A stretch of 64,000 nt of DNA, from the NCBI GenBank assembly GCA_028867755.1, contig JAGWFT010000002.1, positions 96,001-160,000 on the forward strand, read 5' to 3'. Positions within the stretch are counted from its first letter, which is position 1, and each line of letters starts with the position of its first letter. The DNA comes from Nitrososphaerota archaeon (GTDB taxonomy: Archaea > Thermoproteota > Nitrososphaeria > Nitrososphaerales > Nitrosopumilaceae). Both the position numbers and the translations under genes were made by a program. Positions 3,969 to 16,740 of this stretch are shown in pieces. Below the pieces are notes generated by a model. That model had not been told where the DNA came from. It was given only the letters and a program-made list of their open reading frames with translations, and made no database searches.

Positions 3969-5084
3969 CTAGTCAAACAGGAACTTGTCTACTTGGTCTT
4001 TTGCTTTTTCTCTCTTCTTTTTGAAATCTGCAATGAAAGGTTTAGTGGCATCCTTGAGGTTGCATTTGCACTCTCCGCAAAGAAGCTCGCCGCCCTTGCA
4101 TTTTCTTGCCCTCTCGTCTGATTCTTTTTCCATGTCAAAAAAGTATCTTAGGTACCAAAATACCGGACATATGTTGAAATTAGCTCCAAGTTTTCGCTGT
4201 AGCTCAACAGTAGGCTGGCCTCCAGTAAATGTATTTGAGATCTTTTTGTCTATTGCCTCTTCGGTGTCTGTTGTAAATATTGCAGTCTCTGGAATCGAAG
4301 ATGACATCTTTCCTTGCATTCCAAGCCCCGGCAAGAACTTGGAGTGGATCTGAGTTGGCTTTGTGTATCCCATCTTTTCTGCAATGTCTCTTGTGACACG
4401 CCAGTATGGATCCTGGTCTATTGCTGCAGGTATGAGAACTGGAGTTGGCTTGCCCTCGATGACAGATGGAAGAAAACATGGTGCAGCCTGGATTGGCGGA
4501 AAACCTATCATTCCTATGTTTGTAGAGTTTTGAAATCCAAATACTGCCTTTACTGTTGAAAACGTTATGCGCTTTGCTATCTCAAGTGCTATTGGGTAAA
4601 TTCTCTTGATGTCCTTTGTATCGACTAGAATCTTTGTCTTTTTTGGATCAAAGCCCACTGCAATTATATCGTAAATGTTCTCTGTGGTATACCCAGATAC
4701 ATCCTTGAATGATTTCTCATCATTGTACAGAAACTTTTCATCGTCGGTAATTTGGAAGATCAAGTTTACATCAAATTTTTCTTGCAAGTATTTGGTAAAT
4801 ATCCATGGAAGCAAGTGCCCCATGTGAATTGAACCTGAAGGTCCTCTGCCTGTATACAGATAGAACTTGTTGCCTTTTTCATACTCTGTCAAAACTTTGT
4901 CAAAATCTCTATGGCTGAAAAAATATCCAAGCTTTAGCATCGGGTGAATCTCGCCTGTTATCTTTTTTACGCGTGCCTGAAGCTCATCTGAAATTTTCTC
5001 TGTGCCAAATTTCTGTATTAATTTGTCATAATCAATATCGCCTTCTACGCTCCAAGGTGTGACCGTAAAATCCTCAGACGACAT
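3969..5084 (-). CDS. trpS: Tryptophanyl-tRNA synthetase
   Basis: FTVTPW N-terminus, TGRGPS..HMGH (HIGH), AIDQDPY, KMSSS. Confidence 0.97.
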   Translation of the reverse strand: MSSEDFTVTPWSVEGDIDYDKLIQKFGTEKISDELQARVKKITGEIHPMLKLGYFFSHRDFDKVLTEYEKGNKFYLYTGRGPSGSIHMGHLLPWIFTKYLQEKFDVNLIFQITDDEKFLYNDEKSFKDVSGYTTENIYDIIAVGFDPKKTKILVDTKDIKRIYPIALEIAKRITFSTVKAVFGFQNSTNIGMIGFPPIQAAPCFLPSVIEGKPTPVLIPAAIDQDPYWRVTRDIAEKMGYTKPTQIHSKFLPGLGMQGKMSSSIPETAIFTTDTEEAIDKKISNTFTGGQPTVELQRKLGANFNICPVFWYLRYFFDMEKESDERARKCKGGELLCGECKCNLKDATKPFIADFKKKREKAKDQVDKFLFD

Positions 5085-5106
5085 TCATGTTTCAGTTAGG
5101 TTAAGG

Positions 5107-5120
5107 TTTAAAAAGTCTTT
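5107..5120 (+). repeat. attL direct repeat TTTAAAAAGTCTTT (overlaps trpS TATA box)
   Basis: Identical to 17249-17262; begins 23 nt upstream of the trpS ATG. Confidence 0.75.
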
Positions 5121-5169
5121 ACGGGATGGAACATTAGGGTTTAAAATTACTGTATTCCATAACTATGAT

Positions 5170-6270
5170 ATGGATAGAAGTTTAACAAGATTTTTTGCAG
5201 GTATCAGAACAGAAACGACAAGAGAAATTTATGATAGGTATCTTAGGTATTTTCTAAACTTTGTAAAAATAAAAGAGGCTAACGGATTGTTGCAACTCAA
5301 AGACTCTTACCTTCAAACTATGGTAGAAGATTACATCATACATCTGAAAGGTAGGGGCTTACGCAAATCCTCGATTGACGGGCAAATTTCAGCATTAGAG
5401 TTATTCTTTGCTATGAATGACAAGATATTGAATTTCAAGAAAATTCGCAAGATGTCGCCTATTCAACTAAAGATACAGGGAAACGGCTCTTACACAACAG
5501 ATGACATTAAGCGTATGTTAGAGGCTACCACATCGTTAAGAAACAAGGCTATAATTCACTGCCTTGCGAGTTTGGGTTGTCGCCCTAATGCGTTCTGCGA
5601 TCCGCCGTTAAGATTGAGGCATCTAAAAGAGGTCAAGGATGGATATTATTCAGTTCTAATGTACGAAGGCAGTGTCGAGGAATACAGAGGATACCTTACA
5701 AAAGAGGCTTCGATTTTGGTGAAAATGTATATGAACGAGAGGTCAAGGCAAGGCGAAGTAATTACACCTGATAGTCCACTCTTTCGAAATCTGTATCGTG
5801 TGGTCTTGTCTAAAGCCAAGCCTATGACCATAAAAGGAATCAAGTCCATGATTTTAGAAATTCTCAAAAAGATGCGGGGCAAAGGCAAGAAGAGAGGAGA
5901 GAGGTATGATACTGCGATGATTGGAGGGTTTAGACATCGCTACATCGAGATATGTGCAAAAAACAGGCTAGATGTTAGGTTAGCGGAGAGATTGGTATCA
6001 CATACACCAAAGAGCGCACCGATGGACAAGCATTATGTAAATATCAATAACATACAGGATGAACTCTTTAACGAGTTTTTAAGAATTGAAAGAGATCTTA
6101 CTATCTCAAAAGAAGAGAAGGAACGACTTGGAAGAATTGAAGCGGAGAAGAAAGTTACAGAACTTGAAAATGATAAAGATAAACGTATCTCGGAATTAGA
6201 AGCACAGGCAACAGAGACAAGAGATATGATTAAGGGCATTTATGCTCTCTTGGGAAGAGACACGACTTAG
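5170..6270 (+). CDS. int: Tyrosine recombinase / integrase
   Basis: LRNKAIIHCLASLGCRP (Arg), GGFRHRY, LVSH and KHY catalytic motifs, plus a C-terminal coiled coil. Start moved to ATG 5170, which has TTTAAAA at 5140-5146 as a TATA box. Confidence 0.9.
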   Translation: MDRSLTRFFAGIRTETTREIYDRYLRYFLNFVKIKEANGLLQLKDSYLQTMVEDYIIHLKGRGLRKSSIDGQISALELFFAMNDKILNFKKIRKMSPIQLKIQGNGSYTTDDIKRMLEATTSLRNKAIIHCLASLGCRPNAFCDPPLRLRHLKEVKDGYYSVLMYEGSVEEYRGYLTKEASILVKMYMNERSRQGEVITPDSPLFRNLYRVVLSKAKPMTIKGIKSMILEILKKMRGKGKKRGERYDTAMIGGFRHRYIEICAKNRLDVRLAERLVSHTPKSAPMDKHYVNINNIQDELFNEFLRIERDLTISKEEKERLGRIEAEKKVTELENDKDKRISELEAQATETRDMIKGIYALLGRDTT

Positions 6271-7025
6271 TTGTTTTTTTTAAATTTATTATAAAGAAAT
6301 TTTGTTTGTTGATTTACATTCTTTACTGTTTTTTTGTCATAAGGTGAACCTATCAATGCATTTAGTTTTTTGTAAAGTTGTTTATCAAACCCATATTTTT
6401 CTGCAAACTTGAAATTAAGCCTTATCATGCCTTCGGCAAATCTCACTTCAGAACTATCCGTGACTTTTTTTGAAAAACCATCTATCATGTTTTTTTGATT
6501 TAATTTAGATAATTCATTTAGAAGATTAAAGATATATGGTGCTGAGATTTCTGCTTTCTGAGACGGTGTAAACTTTGGATTGTCGTAAACCTCGAATCTG
6601 AGTAATTTTTTGGCATCGTTTGCAATACTTGGGGTTTTAACAAAACCATCGTCATCAAGGCTAATTTTGAAATAATAACGTGGATGTTTTGACTCTGGAT
6701 TAATTTTCTTAAGTTTGTTGTGTTTGCGAGCATGTAGCAAAACATCACGCAAGCTTGAATCGGAAAGCCCCGTACCCTTTTTAATTTCTGAATGAGTTGA
6801 TTCCCCATGTATGGCTAGGTAATCTGAAACAAGACACCAGTTTAGAACTTCATCTTTTTGCATCAAAGGTCTAATGAATTCGCTCCATTTGTGAGATTTG
6901 ATGGCTTCTGCAATTTCTCCCAAAATTAATTCACTAACGATATGCAATAAAGATGTTTTAACTCTTATGAAAAATTCGTAACATAATGTCATGTTGTAAC
7001 AGCATGTGCATGTGATGTACAACAT
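6267..7025 (-). CDS. Winged-helix DNA-binding protein (element regulator); true start may lie further downstream
   Basis: DYLAIHGESTHSEIKKGTGLSDSSLRDVLLHARKHNKLKK...RYYF fits a wHTH; divergent from the cargo operon. Confidence 0.65.
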   Translation of the reverse strand: MLYITCTCCYNMTLCYEFFIRVKTSLLHIVSELILGEIAEAIKSHKWSEFIRPLMQKDEVLNWCLVSDYLAIHGESTHSEIKKGTGLSDSSLRDVLLHARKHNKLKKINPESKHPRYYFKISLDDDGFVKTPSIANDAKKLLRFEVYDNPKFTPSQKAEISAPYIFNLLNELSKLNQKNMIDGFSKKVTDSSEVRFAEGMIRLNFKFAEKYGFDKQLYKKLNALIGSPYDKKTVKNVNQQTKFLYNKFKKNN

Positions 7026-7073: not shown

Positions 7074-7391
7074 ATGGCAACAACTAGTATTGTATTCTGT
7101 CCTTGTGGATGTGGACTTGAGATAGACAAAGTTCCACTAATTGAGATTCTATCACATGCTAGAAAAGCCTGTCAGAAAATATTAGGAGAATGGAAAATGC
7201 AAAATGAAACAAAAACAAGTTGGCAATACGGTGTAGCCTTCAACAAAATACAATCCTTCTTTCAAAGAAAGGCTACTTGTCCGTTAGCTGACTGCAAACA
7301 GTATGTTGAGGCACACACAATGATAGAGTGCGTTCAGCACTTGAAGAGTTACCTCAACTCAATTGAATTGGAAGGTGGGCAACCAAAATGA
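7074..7391 (+). CDS. Cys/His-rich putative zinc-binding protein
   Basis: CPCGC and CPLADC..H..C..H; first gene of the operon. Confidence 0.6.
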   Translation: MATTSIVFCPCGCGLEIDKVPLIEILSHARKACQKILGEWKMQNETKTSWQYGVAFNKIQSFFQRKATCPLADCKQYVEAHTMIECVQHLKSYLNSIELEGGQPK

Positions 7392-7900
7392 AAACTATTA
7401 GTGTTGTTGCTCTAATCTCAATTCTACCATTTATTTTTTTTACAAATAACGCAAACGCCTACGTTGAAAACATCCAACTACAAGACCAATCTGGAAATAT
7501 GGTTGCTGTTGGATTGGATAATCCAAGTATAACTGCAATTGAACAGGGTTGGGTTTATGGTTCTGTGCAGACAAGCAATACCCAAGTTGTTCAGAATACA
7601 GGTATGTCGGACTTTGTTTCGCAGATAAAGCCGACACCACTTGGTTCAGAAGTTGACTTTGCTGGAAAGTTGGACAGCACAGCCACTATCAGACTTGTAG
7701 ACAATTCTGGGCAAAGTTGGAGTCTGATCTTGGAACCACAAGTGGGGAAGAAGACTAGCCAAGATGCAAGCAGTGGTAGTATGCCAAGTGTTACAGATGT
7801 CCCATACTACGTCTATGGGATAGTGGGACTGATTGGTGTTGGAACAATCCTACTAATCAGAAGGAGGAAGAGGGAAATTGGTGAAATCAGCAGAGTCTAA
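7388..7900 (+). CDS. Secreted protein with C-terminal membrane anchor
   Basis: Sec signal (ANA/Y), beta-rich domain, Ser-rich linker, TM helix, RRRKR tail. Confidence 0.75.
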   Translation: MKTISVVALISILPFIFFTNNANAYVENIQLQDQSGNMVAVGLDNPSITAIEQGWVYGSVQTSNTQVVQNTGMSDFVSQIKPTPLGSEVDFAGKLDSTATIRLVDNSGQSWSLILEPQVGKKTSQDASSGSMPSVTDVPYYVYGIVGLIGVGTILLIRRRKREIGEISRV

Positions 7901-8891
7901 ATTTTTCACCGATCCTTTTCAACTGGCTAGCATCGGTATTGTAGCTGTTGGAGATACTGCCTGTAAACAGGCGGAGCAGTTCAGCAAGATACTGCACAAA
8001 CATGAAGCAATATACCAAGTCGGAGTAGTGGCATTAGTCAAAATCTCTACCGAAGTCTACGAAGATGCAAAACAAATAGCAAAACGTTTTCCAAAAAAAG
8101 AAAGACACAAGGTAGTTGGAATCTGTGCCAAGAACACCACACTGATTCGGGAGTTGGAAAAGTCTGAAGAGTTTGCAGAGAGCAAGCGAGGAGTCTGGCT
8201 ACCGAAACTAAAAGACGGCATAGACAGGATCGTAGAACTTCTTGAAACGCATCAGGTAAGCATAGTCGTTGTCTATCTTGGTAGCGGAGGTCATGCAACA
8301 CTGGGCAGGGAACTCATAACCATTCTCAAGGAAAGATATACGGGCGTTCACTTTGTCGTGGTTTTATGCAAACCATATCACGACAAGTTGTGTGAACCCA
8401 TCTACAAAAACAACCAAAAATTTGTCGTAAAAGGTGGAACTCTCAGTGTAATCTTTGAGAGTGAACTCGTAGAGAACTCGTTTGAAGCAAAAGACATTGA
8501 AAACAACACGAGTCTGTTTGCACTTCTCAACGAGAGAAAGACAGCCACTAACAAGTCTGCACCAGATATGCTGAGATTGATGGAGGCACACAAGCAATAT
8601 GTCATCAAGACCGCAGTGCGAAGCAATCCGATTTATCGCAAGCAGGGACTACTATGGGATACAACAAACAATCACAGAGATGTTACAACCGACACAATCG
8701 TGAGAGGAATCAAAGAAATCGGGATATGTCAAGACTGCCTGTATGTAATATCTGGAAGGACAACAGATGGGCAAATCAAGAATGGAATAATGCAAATCGG
8801 CAAAGGTGGCAAGGGCTTTGATCTAAACTACAGGTTACTGCCAACTGAAAAAAACGACACTCTGCTCATTGGGAAGTTTGAGCCATGCTGA
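7878..8891 (+). CDS. Divergent tubulin/FtsZ-superfamily protein
   Basis: Motif order matches FtsZ: IGIVAVGDTAC (T1), VVVYLGSGGHATLG (signature-like), VVVLCKPY, VIFESELV, NKSAPD (T7-like). Confidence 0.65.
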   Translation: MVKSAESKFFTDPFQLASIGIVAVGDTACKQAEQFSKILHKHEAIYQVGVVALVKISTEVYEDAKQIAKRFPKKERHKVVGICAKNTTLIRELEKSEEFAESKRGVWLPKLKDGIDRIVELLETHQVSIVVVYLGSGGHATLGRELITILKERYTGVHFVVVLCKPYHDKLCEPIYKNNQKFVVKGGTLSVIFESELVENSFEAKDIENNTSLFALLNERKTATNKSAPDMLRLMEAHKQYVIKTAVRSNPIYRKQGLLWDTTNNHRDVTTDTIVRGIKEIGICQDCLYVISGRTTDGQIKNGIMQIGKGGKGFDLNYRLLPTEKNDTLLIGKFEPC

Positions 8892-9002: not shown

Positions 9003-10787
9003 TTGTTAGTGTATCTGCATTACTGGTTTGTTGCTGTAGTGATTGGTGGTAGTATTATGGGTTGGAAATTCTGGCAGACAAGAGAAGAATATGATAACTA
9101 TCTTGAAGGTGTCATAAGGCGAGTCGAAAACAAAGGCTTGCATAACTTCTTGCAGGTAGTAGCTGATCCCGTACATCCAAAAGGATTCAACATAATAGAT
9201 GAAACGTTAGGTCAACTAAATCAGAACATTCTCATAAATGGTTCTGCAAGAAGTGGAAAAACATGGCTTGGAATGTATCTTTGTTTAAAATTACCACATA
9301 GGAAAATCATTCTCTCTTTCAAAAAATTTCAGAGTAATAATAGAGACTTTGATATTGGTTACAAGTGGATAGACGTATCACAGTTTTTCCCAAACTTGTT
9401 CGCTGACGGGCAAAGTTTTTGTGAGGCATTTCGTTGCGCTTTCTTTAGCGATTTATCAAGTCGTGGACTTATGATCGATACGATCTTGTCTAAGGTCAAT
9501 GAAGTAATTGAGCAAGAGCCTAAGAACTTTGACGAATTCTTCAAGGCACTCGATAGAGTAGCAAAAAGTGGTCAGTGGGATGCCAACATTACAAACATTG
9601 TAAAATCAAAAGTCAAGAAATTACAGGTTGAGGGTGCAAAGCACGGCAGTATTAATTTTAGACAGGGAAACATAGTGTTAGATCTGGGAAATCTTCCAGA
9701 TGATGAGGTAAAGTCCTTTGTAGCCGAGTTATTTTTGAGACAGATAAACAGGATTGAAGAACAGGAACAAAACACAGAGAAGGTCTATGTTGTCATAGAC
9801 GAGGCTTGGCACATTCTAGCCAGCAAACAACAAAAGTCTATCATAGGAACGATGTTGCTTCAGGGTGCTTTCTATATTCAACTTATCATAATTACCCAAA
9901 ACTATACGCATCTTGATGAAGATTATCGGGGGCATTTCGGTTCTCATTTTTGCTTTAGAAATACAAACGATAAGGATTCAAAAGCGATTGAGGCTGGCTA
10001 TGGTGCGTTTGTCAGGGATGGGGTTAGACAATTACCAGATTTTTGCTATACTAATCTTAGATATCAACATGGAGAAAATATCTTACCATATTGGAAATTA
10101 AATTTTGAGAAATTGGAGAGGTTAATACAAGAAGCAAGACAGACTCATGTAGCAGAAGATAACCCACAGGCTGATTTTGTCAGTGATGGAAATAATGTTT
10201 GGAAGGATGGAGAAGAAAAGAAGAAGGATGAAACAAAAGAGAAGGAAAATTTGGAAGAGAGGGCTATTGACGTTCTCAAAAAAAGTGAGGTGGCTATGTA
10301 TGGATATGAACTTGGCAAGGCAGTTGGCGTTAAACCAAAAGATGTAACTACCAGAAGGAAAATTCTAAGAAAACTTTTAGAAGACAATAAAATAAAAGAA
10401 TGGATTTGTCAAATACGAAATGAAGAAGTTTCATACTACTACCTGATTAACGATGGTCGTGATGTATGCCATAATCTTATGACAAGAGAGACAAAGAAAA
10501 AGTTTGGAGACTGGAAGATTATTTTCGAGGCATCGCAGGGAACAGGAGGCGCAGATTTTGTAATACTACGAGAGAAAGATGGAAAGAAAATTGCCATCGA
10601 GTGTGAAACTAGTTTAAAGAAGGACGCCTCGGATCTGCGTGAAAGGATTGAAAAGAACCTTGCAGATGGAATTGACACAATAATTATGAGTCCTACAGAA
10701 GCGGTCAGAGAAAACTATTCTGCTTTGTTTGAGTGCAAATGCTGTCTTATTTCTGAATTGGAGATATTGAAGAATTGGAAAAAGTAA
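9003..10787 (+). CDS. Membrane-associated HerA/FtsK/VirD4-like ATPase fused to wHTH and PD-(D/E)xK nuclease domains; start uncertain
   Basis: Walker A GSARSGKT, Walker B VVIDEAWH, IIITQN, a wHTH near aa 415-480, and GADFVI...IAIECET. Confidence 0.8.
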   Translation: MLVYLHYWFVAVVIGGSIMGWKFWQTREEYDNYLEGVIRRVENKGLHNFLQVVADPVHPKGFNIIDETLGQLNQNILINGSARSGKTWLGMYLCLKLPHRKIILSFKKFQSNNRDFDIGYKWIDVSQFFPNLFADGQSFCEAFRCAFFSDLSSRGLMIDTILSKVNEVIEQEPKNFDEFFKALDRVAKSGQWDANITNIVKSKVKKLQVEGAKHGSINFRQGNIVLDLGNLPDDEVKSFVAELFLRQINRIEEQEQNTEKVYVVIDEAWHILASKQQKSIIGTMLLQGAFYIQLIIITQNYTHLDEDYRGHFGSHFCFRNTNDKDSKAIEAGYGAFVRDGVRQLPDFCYTNLRYQHGENILPYWKLNFEKLERLIQEARQTHVAEDNPQADFVSDGNNVWKDGEEKKKDETKEKENLEERAIDVLKKSEVAMYGYELGKAVGVKPKDVTTRRKILRKLLEDNKIKEWICQIRNEEVSYYYLINDGRDVCHNLMTRETKKKFGDWKIIFEASQGTGGADFVILREKDGKKIAIECETSLKKDASDLRERIEKNLADGIDTIIMSPTEAVRENYSALFECKCCLISELEILKNWKK

Positions 10788-11680
10788 AAATTCCTAGAGA
10801 CTGGTCTAGAGTCAGGGATGCCATAGTCAGCCGTATTCTGGGGTTTACTACAACATCAGCTAATGCAAAACCATATCGAGACAAAAAGGGAGACTTGGTT
10901 ATACCGATGGGTCACGACGGGGCTTGGCTGATTATATGCATGATGCTCTCAACTCTCATTTTTGCTGGCATCTTTCGTATATCTGGGATGAGTCTTGCAG
11001 AAACGCAGACAGAGTTTCCAAAGTATGATGCTGAGTGGATTTTTCTTATAATGGTCTTATTCCTTTTGCCAAGAATAGTTTTCAGAGGAATTTTAGGCTA
11101 TAGAGATATCCCTAAAGGTTGGACAAGAGAACAGGCTGAGGCTTTTTTTAATTTACAAGGAGCGAGGTCAAGGTGGAAAAGCCTTCTAGAAGAGGTGCTT
11201 GCATGGTTTCCTCTGATAACTTGTTTTAAAATAATTAACAATGTTGGCAAACAAGTTGGTGGTAAGGATTGGAAATTTGGCAGGTGGCTAGTAACTGTTT
11301 TTGCGTGGATGGTTGGATATTATGCATTTTTTAGACTGGTGTTTTGGGTTGAATCTTATGTAAAAGACGCAACGTTAAGCACGTTACTTCCAATAAGTGC
11401 GATAGTCTTTGCTATCATAGCACCTATAGTTTATGCAAGGAAAAAATATCTCACACATTTCAAGAATAACAAAAGATCTCTTGTTGAAGCCTATATGGAA
11501 ATAAAACATGGAAGGCGATGGAGAGTGTGGCTTTATGCATTTATTGGCGTTGGATTGTGCGGTGTTCCCTTGATGATGTATTTTGGGATTGACAAATTAT
11601 TATTTAGCGTGCCAGCCTATTTTGGATTACTTGTTTTCTGTGCATTGAAAGGCAGAGGAAAGTTAAGAAGAAAAAACTAG
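10775..11680 (+). CDS. Polytopic membrane protein (~7 TM)
   Basis: About seven hydrophobic segments; overlaps the ATPase stop. Confidence 0.75.
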   Translation: MEKVKIPRDWSRVRDAIVSRILGFTTTSANAKPYRDKKGDLVIPMGHDGAWLIICMMLSTLIFAGIFRISGMSLAETQTEFPKYDAEWIFLIMVLFLLPRIVFRGILGYRDIPKGWTREQAEAFFNLQGARSRWKSLLEEVLAWFPLITCFKIINNVGKQVGGKDWKFGRWLVTVFAWMVGYYAFFRLVFWVESYVKDATLSTLLPISAIVFAIIAPIVYARKKYLTHFKNNKRSLVEAYMEIKHGRRWRVWLYAFIGVGLCGVPLMMYFGIDKLLFSVPAYFGLLVFCALKGRGKLRRKN

Positions 11681-11754: not shown

Positions 11755-12174
11755 ATGGAAAATGAAACACCACAGATTGAGGAGAGGTATAGGAGACTAT
11801 ACAGAAGTTATGAAACAGAAGACAAGAAAAGGTCTTACGACCTGTTTGTAAGACAGGACAAGAGCAGGACAACGGTATCAACCATACAGAGCGAGAAGAT
11901 CGCAGAAGGCGAGGAAAAATCAATCTCTGTATTTCTCCGAGAAGAGAACCACATAATCTCTATTGAGGTCTGGACGGGCTTTGTAGGTGATGTTCTCAAA
12001 AAGTACGAGCGTCAGTATACTGGACGAGTGGATTATGACATTGGAGCTCTCTTTATGAGCGAGATATACGACAACGCACTACGCATCAACAGCAGGACGC
12101 CATCGGTTGCAAAGGTCTCGGAAAAAATAATAGACTTTGCAAAAATGCACAGGGAGAAGCAGAAATCATTATGA
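11755..12174 (+). CDS. Hypothetical protein
   Basis: 139-aa soluble ORF in the element operon. Confidence 0.6.
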   Translation: MENETPQIEERYRRLYRSYETEDKKRSYDLFVRQDKSRTTVSTIQSEKIAEGEEKSISVFLREENHIISIEVWTGFVGDVLKKYERQYTGRVDYDIGALFMSEIYDNALRINSRTPSVAKVSEKIIDFAKMHREKQKSL

Positions 12175-12175
12175 A

Positions 12176-12415
12176 ATGCGACAGAAAAATAGACAAATCA
12201 AGTATGCACTTGTGTTACTACAAGTTGGTCTTTTAGCAAGTGCATTTTTTCTTTTCTTTGGTCTAGTGGCGATGATGCTATATCTAATTGGTGAAATTAG
12301 CATCGCTGAGATTGTTGATTATTTGCTACTTTCTACTACGTGGGAGAGTGTGGGAATAACATTTTTTGAAGGTTTGATATGGATTGCGTTTAAGAAAAAT
12401 AGGTCGAAAAAATGA
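12176..12415 (+). CDS. 79-aa two-TM membrane protein (pilin-sized)
   Basis: Basic N-terminus, two hydrophobic helices, basic C-terminus; ATG lies 2 nt after the previous stop. Confidence 0.65.
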   Translation: MRQKNRQIKYALVLLQVGLLASAFFLFFGLVAMMLYLIGEISIAEIVDYLLLSTTWESVGITFFEGLIWIAFKKNRSKK

Positions 12416-13093: not shown

Positions 13094-16069
13094 ATGGATC
13101 TAACAAAAGAAAATCTGCATGTTATCATCAGCGAATTTAGAGAATGGTTCAAGGGCAATGATGGTCAGAGGCATTTCAATAACATAGAGAAGGAAAAACA
13201 AGATGTAAAGGATCTCATGAAAAAACTAAAACCAATGGATAAGAACTCGCCAGAGTTCGTTGACTGGGTTCTATATGGGTTGCTACCTTATTTTAAAACA
13301 AAATTTGCAAAACGTGTTAGTACATTTCCCGTATTTCTAAACATAAAACTCTTCCTTAAAAATCGTAACGAGGAAGATTGGACAATATTGGCGAATATGA
13401 TATATGATCTTGCTCACAATTTTCAAGAAACGCCCAATAAGTTAGATATCTGGATTAAAGATTTTATTTCTGACAAAGCTCGTAGTAGAATGATTCAGTG
13501 TGGCACAATATCTCCGATAATATTTTGTATCAACGAATCGTTCCCAGTAGTGAATAACAGGGTCAGACATACCTACAATGAATTTGCAACTGTTTTTGGT
13601 TGGAATGATATCATGTCTCAGAAATTAGAACACTATTTGGACAATGTAAAAAAATGTCAGAAACTTATTGATGCATTAGGTGTTGAAGAACTTAGAAATC
13701 TTACCATTTTTGATGAATTCTGTTATTGGTATGATTATATTTACAAAGGAGAAAACGATGAGGAAGAAGAAACTGAATCTGATGTTGAGGTAAAGACAAG
13801 AGCTGAGGAAGTTAATCTTCCAATGTTTCTTGAGTCTGCACAATTAAGTAATCTAGCTAAATTTGAACCGCATTCGCTACGTAATCCAGAGAGAATCAAA
13901 ATCGACCAGATTATTTCTAATGCTTCTAACGGTAAATGGGTTCTACCAAATTTTCAAAGATATTTTGATTGGAAGAAGAACGATGTCAAGGAATTACTAA
14001 AATCAATATTCAACGATTATTATGTAGGAGCACTTCTTCTGTGGGATGTCGGAAAAGAACCAGAATTAGATCCTATGCCCATCATGGGTGTGGATATTAG
14101 AAAGGACGAACTCAAACCAAATTCTATCATTTTAGACGGGCAACAAAGGATTACATCGCTTTATTACGCACTGAGAGCGCCTAATTTTCCATTGCGGGGT
14201 AGTAGCGCACCTCTCTATTTTTACATTAACTTTTCTGAATTTTTTAATCAAAATGAGTCGAGTGACATTATAGAAATATTACCGAGAAAATTGGGCAGAG
14301 ATGAATCTTTTAAAAAAAGACTGTTTCCATTCTATGAATTAGAGAAGTATTCTGAATGGGTAGATGGTTTTGAAGATTTTATGTTGAAGGCTTCAACAGA
14401 CCAAGATAAGATAAGATCTATTAGGAGAATCATCGACAAAAAATTAAGGCATGTAATAGACGGTTTTGAAATTCCATATATCTCTCTTCCAGAAACAATG
14501 GAATTACCACAAGTAACCGATATTTTTGAAAAAATAAACACGATGGGAAAAGTCCTTAGCGTATTTGATCTTTTGATAGCTAGACTTAGCAAATACGAAA
14601 TAGAATTGAAAACACATTGGGAGGAATCCGTTAAGCGATTCCCTAAATTGCTTGAATATTACAAATCAATAGATAAGATACCCATTTACATCCTTCAGGC
14701 AATTTCCCTCTGCTATAATAAAACTAGTTCTTGTAAAAGAGAAGATATTCTAAATATATATCAAAATGTTTTTGAGCCTACAGATCTTTCCTTTGAGGAA
14801 ATTTGGAACGAGATGACAGAATACTTGAACAAGGGCATATTAAAAATTGAAAATCTGAGAGATGGGTTTGGTGTTAAAGACAGAAATGAGTTGCCGTTTG
14901 CTCCTATGATTCCTATACTGGCAGCCCTAACTAAGGAAATTGAATCGAGACATAACAAAGTCGACTGTTACAAAAAACTTGGCACATGGTACTGGACATC
15001 AGTCTTCTCTAATGCATACTCTGGTGCTGTTGATAGCCAGTTAACAGCAGATTTCAAGGAAATGAAAGATTGGTTCTCCGATGATACTAAGATTCCAAAA
15101 ACAGTAGATAGAGCTAGGAGAGAATTTGCCACGTTGAATCTTCGTGAAATACAATCTAAATCAAGTGCGATGTACAGAGGAGTCTTGTCACTTTTAGCGT
15201 TGGAAGGAGCTAATGACTTTAACACTAATCAAACCCTTGAGAATGCCCGAAATAACGATAAAGACCACCTGTTTCCCAAAGCTGAATTTCATTCTATGAG
15301 GAATGTAAATTCTATTTTAAACATAAGCTGGATGTCTGATGAGACCAACAGGAAGATTAAGAGATACAAGAAACCCTCCGCTTATGTCAAAGAGTTCATT
15401 AAGGAAAAATATGGCGGAAATGAAAAAGAATTTTTGAAAGTTTTGGAAAGTCATTTCATAAACAAAAATGCCTATGATTGTATGTTAAGAGATGACTTTC
15501 AGGGTTTCATTTCTGAACGCGAAAAAGTCGTTCTTGGTAAGATTAAGAATGCGATCGGTCTTGAAGGTACTGTACAAGACCACACTCTGATAACTCCAGA
15601 GCAACCATTTTCAAATCGTGTAGCTTTCTGGAATACGATAAAATCCTGTGATAGTTATATTTACTGGGTCGATAAATATTTCTCAAAGGAAGGACTCGAG
15701 CTACTCTCTCAATCATTGGATACAAACAAAACAAAAACTGTAAAGATAATCATTTCAGTTGAGAAAGCAGATGAAAAACTAAGAAGTCTCTTCAAAGACT
15801 TTAGAGAAGAGATGAAAAACAAGAATACTATCTGCGAGCTCAGGGTGATAACCGATTCTAAGTTGAAATCAAGTATACACGACAGATGGATATTGTCAAA
15901 GAACAGTTGTTTTAACATACCGTCGCCTGACACAGTAGCGAGAGGTCAGTACAGTGAAATAAAAGCCACAGAAAACAGACCTCCTTTCGATGATTGGTGG
16001 ACGAGAAGCCTCGATATAATCAACAATTGGAATGAAATTCAGAAAAGTAAAGAGATAATTTCAAAATAA
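13094..16069 (+). CDS. GmrSD-like (DUF262 + DUF1524/HNH) restriction endonuclease with extra N- and C-terminal domains
   Basis: LPNFQRYFDW, ILDGQQRITSL and IFEKINT (DUF262); DHLFP...N..N.SW...N (HNH); C-terminal IHDRW motif. Confidence 0.85.
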   Translation: MDLTKENLHVIISEFREWFKGNDGQRHFNNIEKEKQDVKDLMKKLKPMDKNSPEFVDWVLYGLLPYFKTKFAKRVSTFPVFLNIKLFLKNRNEEDWTILANMIYDLAHNFQETPNKLDIWIKDFISDKARSRMIQCGTISPIIFCINESFPVVNNRVRHTYNEFATVFGWNDIMSQKLEHYLDNVKKCQKLIDALGVEELRNLTIFDEFCYWYDYIYKGENDEEEETESDVEVKTRAEEVNLPMFLESAQLSNLAKFEPHSLRNPERIKIDQIISNASNGKWVLPNFQRYFDWKKNDVKELLKSIFNDYYVGALLLWDVGKEPELDPMPIMGVDIRKDELKPNSIILDGQQRITSLYYALRAPNFPLRGSSAPLYFYINFSEFFNQNESSDIIEILPRKLGRDESFKKRLFPFYELEKYSEWVDGFEDFMLKASTDQDKIRSIRRIIDKKLRHVIDGFEIPYISLPETMELPQVTDIFEKINTMGKVLSVFDLLIARLSKYEIELKTHWEESVKRFPKLLEYYKSIDKIPIYILQAISLCYNKTSSCKREDILNIYQNVFEPTDLSFEEIWNEMTEYLNKGILKIENLRDGFGVKDRNELPFAPMIPILAALTKEIESRHNKVDCYKKLGTWYWTSVFSNAYSGAVDSQLTADFKEMKDWFSDDTKIPKTVDRARREFATLNLREIQSKSSAMYRGVLSLLALEGANDFNTNQTLENARNNDKDHLFPKAEFHSMRNVNSILNISWMSDETNRKIKRYKKPSAYVKEFIKEKYGGNEKEFLKVLESHFINKNAYDCMLRDDFQGFISEREKVVLGKIKNAIGLEGTVQDHTLITPEQPFSNRVAFWNTIKSCDSYIYWVDKYFSKEGLELLSQSLDTNKTKTVKIIISVEKADEKLRSLFKDFREEMKNKNTICELRVITDSKLKSSIHDRWILSKNSCFNIPSPDTVARGQYSEIKATENRPPFDDWWTRSLDIINNWNEIQKSKEIISK

Positions 16070-16253: not shown

Positions 16254-16517
16254 TTAATCCTTACCATATACTTGTTTATGACTGCCAACTCTACGCAGTT
16301 CTATTGTATTGTTTACAAAATCAACCGAGTAGATAATTCTATTACTCTTATCAAGGTTGTAGGCATATACTCTTAGACTCTGTTTGTAGTCGCCTAATTT
16401 TGTAGGATTTTCAGACTTGACTAATTCAGCGAGTACCGAGTCAACTCTTTTTTGAAAATCAGAACTCAATGACTTGTATTGTTTGATAAACTTCTTGTTT
16501 GGAGCAAGTATCCACAA
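16254..16517 (-). CDS. relE: RelE/ParE-superfamily toxin
   Basis: FIKQYKSL...RIIYSVD...RVGSHKQVY; 87 aa. Confidence 0.8.
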   Translation of the reverse strand: MWILAPNKKFIKQYKSLSSDFQKRVDSVLAELVKSENPTKLGDYKQSLRVYAYNLDKSNRIIYSVDFVNNTIELRRVGSHKQVYGKD

Positions 16518-16518
16518 T

Positions 16519-16665
16519 TTAACTATGTAATTCTTTGAGAAGTTCTTCTAAAGTGCTTCGTTTTATCTTGCCTTTGGCTTTATCGGACTCGTATTCTTTG
16601 ATATCTGCTATCTCTTCTGGTGTGAGATCGTCTTCTACTTTGGTCTTCTTTGTGGCTCGTTGCAT
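16519..16665 (-). CDS. 48-aa RelB-like antitoxin (not in ORF track)
   Basis: MQRATKKTKVEDDLTPEEIADIKEYESDKAKGKIKRSTLEELLKELHS; stop is 1 nt from the toxin start. Confidence 0.75.
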   Translation of the reverse strand: MQRATKKTKVEDDLTPEEIADIKEYESDKAKGKIKRSTLEELLKELHS

Positions 16666-16674
16666 GTTACCTTC

Positions 16675-16740
16675 ACTATGTTATAGCATAGTAGAATAAT
16701 TAAAACTATGTGTAACTATTGTAACTATGTTTGACTATTG
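16675..16740. promoter_or_regulatory. ACTATG palindrome plus four phased ACTAT repeats
   Basis: ACTATG-ttatag-CATAGT at 16675-16692; ACTAT at 16705, 16715, 16724 and 16734. Confidence 0.6.

What the first reader, a model, noticed from the sequence alone, without database searches (positions are those of the whole stretch)
7878..8891. Highly divergent tubulin/FtsZ homolog on a mobile element, with rewired GTP-binding motifs
Seen: the motif succession aligns by eye with FtsZ. IGIVAVGDTAC corresponds to ITVVGCGGAG, YLGSGGHATLG to GLGGGTGTG, VVLCKPY to VVTLPF, and NKSAPD to the T7 loop NVDFAD. The glycine-rich signature and the first T7 Asp are altered. Established: TubZ and PhuZ segregate plasmids and phages; Nitrosopumilales have a chromosomal FtsZ, and some have artubulins. 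Inference: this is a distinct element-borne family that may bind nucleotide atypically or act as a static scaffold, for partitioning (TubZRC-like, with the wHTH protein and ACTAT repeats) or for positioning the transfer pore.
Basis: partly seen in the sequence, partly recalled or inferred. Interest (0 to 1): 0.8.

Follow-up and report, generated by a model that had tools for sequence, protein, structure and literature searches.

The report
Hidden tubulin/FtsZ relative on archaeal element
A 337-residue gene on a 12-kb integrated mobile element of an ammonia-oxidising archaeon is predicted to fold like tubulin/FtsZ although no sequence method detects this; it represents a small undescribed branch of the cytoskeletal superfamily that sits next to a DNA-pumping-type ATPase.

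Summary

The family is tiny: three branches, about 22 clusters at 90% identity, all annotated hypothetical, named records Nitrososphaerota. It lies in a 12.1-kb insertion between trpS and pheS, which are about 40 bp apart in four congeners.

In seven loci it follows a small membrane-anchored protein and precedes a CedB/VirB4-like ATPase. An eighth locus (G365) keeps the order, but its protein is tubulin-like only as a lead. Some sister elements have the ATPase without it. The T1, T3 and T4 loops are rewired and the second T7 Asp is invariant.

Function is inferred: probably a nucleotide-dependent polymer working with the DNA-translocation module. A TubZRC-type partition system is not supported. 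The scan noted this only on this genome.

The parts
7878..8891 (+). Divergent tubulin/FtsZ-superfamily protein (337 aa). T1 is G25-D26, T3 region E92/E94/K95, T4 G135-S-G-G-H139, T5 K165-P166, T6/H7 S195/F202/D206/N209, T7/H8 N225...D230. It ends in an invariant EPC.
7388..7900 (+). 170-aa protein with a signal peptide, a C-terminal TM anchor and a short basic tail. It overlaps the start of the tubulin-like gene. A homolog or positional analog lies upstream in every locus that has the gene.
   Evidence: (weak Loki-CTERM match)
7074..7391 (+). 105-aa Cys/His-rich small protein, the first gene of the co-directional block.
9003..10787 (+). 594-aa P-loop ATPase. It matches AAA_10 and is partly CedB- and TraC/VirB4-like. 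It has an N-terminal hydrophobic segment and Walker A GSARSGKT. It is always the next gene after the tubulin-like gene.
10775..11680 (+). 301-aa polytopic membrane protein, weakly conserved in L003.
11755..12174 (+). 139-aa conserved module protein of unknown fold.
12137..12415 (+). 92-aa two-TM small protein, conserved in L003 and L004.
5059..6270 (+). Tyrosine recombinase/integrase (XerA-like). The true start is probably the ATG near 5170, downstream of the left repeat.
6267..7025 (-). 252-aa divergently oriented protein with weak MarR-like HTH signals. A positional analog in L049 is an ArsR/MarR-type HTH protein.
5107..5120 (+). Left copy of the 14-bp direct repeat TTTAAAAAGTCTTT (candidate attL).
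17249..17262 (+). Right copy of the 14-bp direct repeat (candidate attR).
16705..16738 (+). Four ACTAT repeats at 9-11 bp spacing. They sit next to a conserved GC-rich noncoding block.
13094..16069 (+). 991-aa GmrSD-type defence protein, variable cargo of the element.

Best explanation
SHOWN. The gene encodes a member of a small, previously unannotated branch of the tubulin/FtsZ superfamily. It is carried by a 12.1-kb integrase-bearing element inserted between trpS and pheS of a Nitrososphaerota (Nitrosopumilales-type) genome. The predicted structure has both tubulin domains. The residues that stay invariant across the family cluster in the loops that form the nucleotide pocket in tubulins (T1, T3-T6, H7) and at the T7/H8 Asp, which in tubulins reaches into the next subunit's pocket.

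INFERRED. The protein binds a nucleoside triphosphate with a rewired pocket. T1 is G-D-S/T-A instead of a glycine run. T3 is an E-x-E-K motif instead of GAGxN. T4 is G-S-G-G-H instead of GGGTGS/TG. It probably assembles head-to-tail into filaments whose hydrolysis is activated by D230.

INFERRED, weaker. The filament acts at the cytoplasmic face of the membrane together with the anchor protein encoded just upstream and the CedB/VirB4/HerA-like ATPase encoded just downstream. It would position, cluster or feed the element's DNA to that translocation apparatus, rather than act as a stand-alone TubZRC-type plasmid partition system.

For: Independent feature search: the nearest named ESM Atlas clusters all carry PF00091 or TubZ_C (score 0.90, 195-200 of 256 features).

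Pocket conservation: invariant residues are G25, D26, E92, E94, K95, G137, H158, P166, I175, S195 and D230. The third branch keeps N-x-D-x-x-D in T7 (hhalign A3 vs A5 probability 96%, E 3.7e-9).

Mobile element: trpS and pheS are 40-43 bp apart in 4 of 5 congeners and 12.2 kb apart here, with a 14-bp direct repeat at the ends. The family was found in 3 of 400 genomes of the class.

Synteny: the order integrase / HTH / small anchored protein / tubulin-like / ~600-aa ATPase holds in the window, L003, L004, L036, the P0016 and P0013 contigs and L050. L049 keeps the order, with its protein tubulin-like only as a lead.

Constraint: it is the most conserved protein of the module, 73% identity against 34% for the ATPase in L003 and 46% against 22% in L004. 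This is what many-sided polymer contacts would produce.
Against: No sequence method reaches significance against canonical families. Pfam gives nothing at E<=1. PF00091 finds only the two chromosomal paralogs in this genome. hhalign probabilities are 2% or lower. The CetZ HMMER match has E 0.16. Homology therefore rests on predicted structures built from one shallow 15-row alignment, plus language-model features.

The C-terminal domain of the window's own protein is modelled at pLDDT below 50.

An Asp in T1 and the loss of the glycine-rich T4 could mean a different ligand, or none.

Nucleotide binding, hydrolysis and polymerisation are untested.

Sister elements with 31-52% identical ATPases (G353, G340) lack the gene, so it is not essential to the ATPase module.
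Confidence: 0.6

Rival explanations
1. TubZ-like type III partition motor. The filaments segregate the excised, circular form of the element. They would be linked to DNA by an adaptor (the 252-aa HTH protein, the 105-aa Zn protein or the wHTH of the ATPase) bound at a repeat array such as ACTAT x4.
Against: No small TubR-like wHTH gene adjoins the gene. The ACTAT array is 8 kb away, beside a small minus-strand operon, and is not found in the other loci. No iteron array lies near the gene. The element integrates by a tyrosine recombinase, so it needs no partition while integrated. The near branch lacks the long C-terminal tail that TubZ uses to bind TubR.
Confidence: 0.2
2. A non-polymerising derivative of the tubulin fold. 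It would be a nucleotide- or other ligand-binding regulatory or assembly subunit of the membrane ATPase complex, or a static scaffold.
For: T1, T3 and T4 have lost most of the glycines that contact the phosphates. The first T7 Asp is Ser or Asn in two branches. The gene is dispensable in some sister elements.
Against: D230 at the T7/H8 boundary is invariant across 21%-identity branches, and the third branch keeps both Asp. The protein is more conserved than any neighbour.
Confidence: 0.12
3. Not a tubulin homolog at all. It would be a generic Rossmann-fold enzyme (SDR-like, or a GT-B/Alg14-like 'GSGGH' loop) whose tubulin likeness is a modelling artefact or convergence.
Against: Tubulin-superfamily chains outrank every other fold in two independent aligners for both models. 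They align about 300 residues including the C-terminal domain, against about 180 for SDRs. The language-model features point to Tubulin/TubZ independently. The T7 motif N-x-D-x-x-D appears in the third branch at the predicted place.
Confidence: 0.05

Closest known systems
CetZ (archaeal tubulin-like proteins; structures 4b45, 3zid, 4b46)
   Different: No PF00091 or CetZ_C match. T4 is GSGGH, not GGTGS. CetZ is chromosomal and acts in cell shape, whereas this protein is borne on a mobile element next to a membrane ATPase. The taxonomic range also differs: CetZ is mainly euryarchaeal by the literature (PMC9871819).
TubZ / PhuZ (plasmid and phage tubulins; type III partition TubZRC)
   Different: No adjacent TubR or tubC. 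No TubZ_C Pfam match. The near branch has no C-terminal tail. The host is archaeal and the element integrative. The gene is embedded in an operon of membrane proteins and a CedB/VirB4-like ATPase.
FtsZ and the thaumarchaeal chromosomal paralogs (317-aa FtsZ-like and 464-aa artubulin-like genes of this genome)
   Different: The chromosomal genes hit PF00091 (E 1e-16 to 4e-18), while this protein does not. hhalign finds no relationship between them, so it is not a recent duplicate of a host gene.
Ced/Ted and VirB4-type archaeal DNA-transfer systems (context, not the protein itself)
   Same: The neighbouring ATPase partly matches CedB (E 7e-11) and TraC. It is followed by a polytopic and a two-TM membrane protein.
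   Different: To my knowledge, no tubulin-like component is described for those systems. The thaumarchaeal mobile-element survey PMC6563490 never mentions tubulin, FtsZ or TubZ.

Membership tests
Tubulin/FtsZ superfamily | Two-domain fold: a Rossmann-like nucleotide-binding domain (S1-S6 with T1-T6 loops), the core helix H7, the T7 loop/H8, and a C-terminal four-stranded sheet with two helices. | tested here: met
Tubulin/FtsZ superfamily | Sequence-profile membership (Pfam PF00091 Tubulin, PF13809 Tubulin_2, PF12327 FtsZ_C). | tested here: not met
   No such hit at E<=1. A genome-wide PF00091 search finds two other genes but not this one. hhalign against FtsZ/artubulin sets gives probability 2% or lower.
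Tubulin/FtsZ superfamily | Glycine-rich T4 signature [SAG]-G-G-T-G-[SA]-G. | tested here: not met
   T4 is [GS]-[SA]-G-G-H-[AS] in A3 and S-[TNE]-G-G-H in A5. Only the GG core is kept.
Tubulin/FtsZ superfamily | T7 synergy loop with acidic residue(s) (N-x-D-x-x-D/E) that activate hydrolysis in the neighbouring subunit. | tested here: inconclusive
   The second Asp (D230) is invariant. The first is Ser or Asn in two branches, but Asp in the third branch. The assignment rests on model topology, not on a bound nucleotide.
Tubulin/FtsZ superfamily | GTP binding, GTP hydrolysis and head-to-tail polymerisation. | not testable with these tools
   This needs biochemistry and EM.
TubZRC type III partition system | An adjacent gene for a small wHTH adaptor (TubR) and an upstream iteron centromere (tubC). 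| tested here: not met
   The neighbours are a TM-anchored protein and an ATPase. The only HTH gene is 252 aa, divergent and two genes away. No repeat array lies near the gene. ACTAT x4 is 8 kb away and not conserved.
TubZRC type III partition system | An extended C-terminal tail/helix that binds the adaptor. | tested here: inconclusive
   The near branch ends right after the last strand (…EPC). The distant branch has an extra helix (347-357) and an acidic tail.
CetZ | The CetZ_C domain (PF21011) and a canonical tubulin GTPase domain. | tested here: not met
   No Pfam hit. The structural likeness is high but not distinguishable from tubulin or TubZ.

The most novel reading that the evidence does not exclude
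A tubulin-fold filament is an integral, membrane-proximal component of a minimal archaeal conjugation-like DNA-transfer machine. The machine would comprise an anchored surface protein, the tubulin-like protein, a CedB/VirB4-like ATPase with a DNA-binding tail, a polytopic pore protein and a two-TM pilin-like protein. The filament would recruit or gate the DNA translocase much as FtsZ recruits FtsK. This would be a role not known for any tubulin homolog, and it would use a nucleotide pocket rebuilt without the canonical glycine loops.
Probability: 0.25. Interest if true: 0.85.

Novelty: new variant of a known kind. Interest (0 to 1): 0.66.

Why it matters
Surveys of the tubulin/FtsZ superfamily start from Pfam Tubulin domains (for example PMC9871819), so they cannot see this family. 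Its existence shows that the superfamily reaches further in sequence space, and into archaeal mobile elements, than is catalogued.

If the protein polymerises with a T1/T3/T4 pocket stripped of the canonical glycines, it would define the minimal chemistry needed for a cytomotive tubulin.

If it works with the adjacent CedB/VirB4-like ATPase, it would be the first link between a tubulin-type cytoskeleton and a DNA-transfer apparatus. It would also give a handle on how the little-understood small integrated elements of ammonia-oxidising archaea move.

Tried and rejected
1. Sequence-family searches found nothing meaningful for the protein: Pfam, PHROGs, NCBIfam, and PDB by phmmer and by profile. 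The weak EVE, dihydroorotate dehydrogenase and P450 hits are noise.

2. hhalign was run with A3, A5 and their merged alignment against 14 archaeal FtsZ, 9 thaumarchaeal FtsZ-like and 3 artubulin-like sequences taken from genomes. No result was significant. A forced global alignment was uninformative.

3. P0011 and P0014, from the exhaustive search, looked like long fused relatives. P0011 proved to be a tandem-repeat protein matching one 40-residue stretch repeatedly, so it is spurious. P0014 (12 short stretches in 2247 aa, a VHL hit) was judged alike without being compared.

4. Alg14/GT-B 'GSGGH' idea: there is only a faint hit in one member, and it is outscored by the two-domain tubulin match.

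5. Centromere search: there are no iterons near the gene. The ACTAT pattern is absent from all other loci.

6. Rfam on the conserved noncoding block near attR gave no match.

7. The G365 positional analog (L049:625-1731) has no sequence match to A3. Its tubulin-like status rests only on ESM features at 0.84, which is a lead and not a result.

8. No phylogeny was attempted. At 14% identity or less to any canonical family, it would not be meaningful.

Full report
**The object**

Window 7878-8891 (+) is an open frame of 337 codons. It starts at TTG 7878, or at GTG 7881, which gives the 336-aa form on record. A purine-rich stretch lies just upstream. The frame overlaps the end of the preceding gene (7388-7900).

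The gene is real and under constraint. Intact orthologs of 336-338 aa occur in three other loci. dN/dS is 0.136 against L003 and 0.148 against L036; the comparisons with L004 are saturated at synonymous sites.

**What sequence methods see**

Sequence methods see nothing.
- Pfam at E<=1, PHROGs and NCBIfam give only noise.
- phmmer against all PDB chains gives nothing.
- A profile of the family against the PDB gives CetZ 3zid at E 0.16. This is insignificant, but the alignment runs in register over T4, T5, H5, S6 and T6.
- A PF00091 search of the whole genome finds two other genes and not this one. They are a 317-aa thaumarchaeal FtsZ-like gene and a 464-aa artubulin-like gene, both on the same contig.
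- hhalign of the family against FtsZ, thaumarchaeal FtsZ-like and artubulin-like alignments that I built from 26 genomic loci gives probabilities of 2% or lower.

**The family**

An exhaustive phmmer search over 1.84 billion representative proteins found five hits at E<=0.001. One is the close relative P0004 and two are true distant relatives (P0012, P0013). One of the other two (P0011) proved to be a tandem-repeat artefact, and the second (P0014) looks alike but was not compared.

Word-seeded searches gave three groups.
- Nine near clusters at 46-100% identity.
- A distant branch of about 370 aa at about 21% identity.
- A third branch of seven clusters, found by walking from the ATPase in other genomes.

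The third branch is linked to the first two by hhalign at 96% probability, E 3.7e-9, over 302 columns. Every record that carries a name is 'hypothetical protein', and the named ones are from Thaumarchaeota/Nitrososphaerota MAGs.

Among 400 genomes sampled across the class, the first two branches were found in three, all in the window's own genus. One of the three is a short, weak match with an internal stop.

**Fold**

AF2 model of the window protein from the 15-row alignment:
- Residues 16-220 are modelled at pLDDT about 90.
- The C-terminal third is below 50.

Matches for that model:
- In Foldseek against the PDB, the 50 listed best matches are all tubulin, TubZ, CetZ or FtsZ (E 3e-5 to 2e-4).
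- It is followed by CetZ, phage c-st TubZ, tubulins, BtubA, FtsZ, TubZ and PhuZ.

I used the second model slot on a distant-branch member (P0017). It came out better: pLDDT 79.6, pTM 0.82, with a confident C-terminal S7-H9-S8-H10-S9-S10 domain and a terminal helix.

Matches for the P0017 model:
- Foldseek gives CetZ at E 1.2e-12, then FtsZ, TubZ and tubulin over 340-390 alignment columns.
- In BFVD the ten matches at E<=0.001 lead the list; the six that carry a family name are phage FtsZ/tubulin/PhuZ-type and four are unnamed.

As a separate line of evidence, the ESM Atlas feature search places the window protein nearest to clusters carrying PF00091 and TubZ_C (score 0.90, 195-200 of 256 shared features).

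Three caveats apply. Both models use the same shallow alignment. The window protein's own C-domain is poorly modelled. Everything is prediction.

**Motifs**

- **T1:** G25-D26 (both invariant) follow S1.
- **T3:** the region holds invariant E92, E94 and K95 instead of a GAGxN loop.
- **T4:** G-S-G-G-H follows S4.
- **T5:** K165-P166 follows S5.
- **T6/H7:** these carry S195, F202, D206 and N209.
- **T7/H8:** D230, at the boundary, is invariant.

The first T7 Asp is Ser or Asn in two branches. In the third branch the loop reads D-x-T-D, with both Asp invariant, and it aligns exactly onto N-K-S-A-P-D.

'Rewired' is therefore a fair description of T1, T3 and T4. The ribose/base side and the catalytic Asp look conserved. 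This argues for an active nucleotide-dependent protein and against a static one. That is an inference.

**Mobile element**

The trpS and pheS genes flank the region.
- In four of five congeners they are divergent neighbours 40-43 bp apart.
- Here they are 12.2 kb apart.
- A 14-bp direct repeat, TTTAAAAAGTCTTT, sits at 5107 and 17249.

In G239 and L003 the orthologous module sits elsewhere, between an S11 gene and an AIRS gene, and its integrase is split.

Cargo differs between elements: GmrSD here, HEPN_AbiV or PKD proteins elsewhere.

**Context and function**

Seven loci spanning all three branches share one gene order:
1. integrase;
2. an oppositely oriented HTH protein;
3. one or two small proteins, the last with a signal peptide and a C-terminal anchor;
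4. the tubulin-like gene;
5. a 570-640-aa P-loop ATPase;
6. membrane proteins.

An eighth locus (G365, L049) keeps this order, but its protein at that position matches A3 by no sequence test.

The ATPase matches AAA_10 and, in part, CedB (E 7e-11) and TraC.

The tubulin-like protein is the best conserved protein of the module: 73% against 34% for the ATPase in L003, and 46% against 22% in L004.

The ATPase family is wider. It was found in 11 of the 400 genomes. That tally includes the unpublished genome G229, on which no other claim here rests.

In G353 and G340 the ATPase is preceded directly by a longer membrane protein with a cytoplasmic tail of 110-130 residues, and there is no tubulin-like gene.

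In G365 the protein at that position has no sequence match to the family. It carries a GG-rich loop, and ESM features lean to tubulin-like clusters at 0.84. This is a lead only.

Several observations bear on the two functional readings:
- No TubR-like gene is adjacent.
- No repeats lie near the gene.
- That array lies 8 kb downstream, beside a small minus-strand operon and a conserved GC-rich noncoding block.
- The array is not found in the other loci.

I therefore favour a filament or assembly factor acting with the membrane ATPase module over a TubZRC-type partition system. This is inference from gene order only.

**Literature**

The survey of thaumarchaeal integrated elements (PMC6563490) does not mention tubulin, FtsZ or TubZ. 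The superfamily survey PMC9871819 works from Pfam tubulin domains, and in the passages I searched it describes no family of this kind. Two further full-text searches found no report of a tubulin homolog on an archaeal integrated element.

**Verdict**

This is a new, sequence-invisible branch of a known superfamily in a new genomic setting. Its mechanism is unproven.

Noticed in passing
window 5107-5120 and 17249-17262; flanks 3969-5084 (trpS, -) and 17267-18712 (pheS, +): A 12.1-kb insertion is bounded by a 14-bp direct repeat. In four congeners trpS and pheS are only 40-43 bp apart. In G133 they are about 950 bp apart, perhaps a remnant or another small insert.
   Followed up: partly
window ~16740-17150; L003 ~16270-16700; L004 ~9320-9760: A conserved, GC-rich noncoding block of about 400 nt lies near the right end of three sister elements. 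It shares strings such as CTCAATTCACCCCG and TCGTTGATAGTCGTTTGGCAGGGG. It has no Rfam match and could be an origin, a transfer site or an RNA.
   Followed up: partly
window 16705-16738; L004 ~9240-9300: Element-specific short repeats lie directly upstream of that block: ACTAT x4 at 9-11 bp spacing here, and five TTTACCCTT-like units in L004. They may be binding sites for an element protein, for example the wHTH-bearing ATPase or the HTH regulator.
   Followed up: partly
window 9003-10787: The ATPase partly matches CedB (E 7e-11) and TraC and has a faint MobC-like match near residue 530. Its homologs occur in 11 of 400 class genomes, more widely than the tubulin-like gene.
   Followed up: partly
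L039 3551-4648 (G353) and L041 2-898 (G340): In elements without the tubulin-like gene, the protein upstream of the ATPase is a longer signal-peptide/TM protein with a cytoplasmic tail of 110-130 residues. In G340 the tail includes a Cys/His cluster. It may substitute for the anchor plus tubulin-like pair.
   Followed up: no
L049 625-1731 (-) (G365): A 368-aa protein occupies the same position in a syntenic element and has a TTGGSSGGIG loop. It has no sequence match to the family, but ESM features lean to tubulin-like clusters (0.84). It may be a fourth, even more divergent branch.
   Followed up: partly
window 8871-8891 (C-terminus of the protein); P0012-P0018 C-termini: The near branch always ends in E-P-C immediately after the last strand. 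The distant branch instead adds a helix and an acidic tail ending in an aromatic residue then Ala, reminiscent of tubulin and FtsZ tails.
   Followed up: no
L003 6774-7328 and 7291-7884: The integrase of the sister element in G239 is split into two overlapping ORFs, suggesting that this copy is decaying.
   Followed up: no
G000 contig C35: 254942-255592 (+) and 232974-233426 (-) (L001, L002): The host genome carries two canonical PF00091 genes. One is a 464-aa artubulin-like protein with GGGTGSS. The other is a 317-aa thaumarchaeal FtsZ-like protein without the GGGTG signature.
   Followed up: partly
window 13094-16069; P0013 contig: The defence cargo differs between sister elements: a GmrSD-type protein here, and a HEPN_AbiV protein on the P0013 contig.
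   Followed up: no
window 16254-16665 (-): Two small minus-strand ORFs lie immediately downstream of the ACTAT array. One is about 45 aa and the other 87 aa. The pair could be a toxin-antitoxin or regulator pair whose promoter holds the repeats.
   Followed up: no
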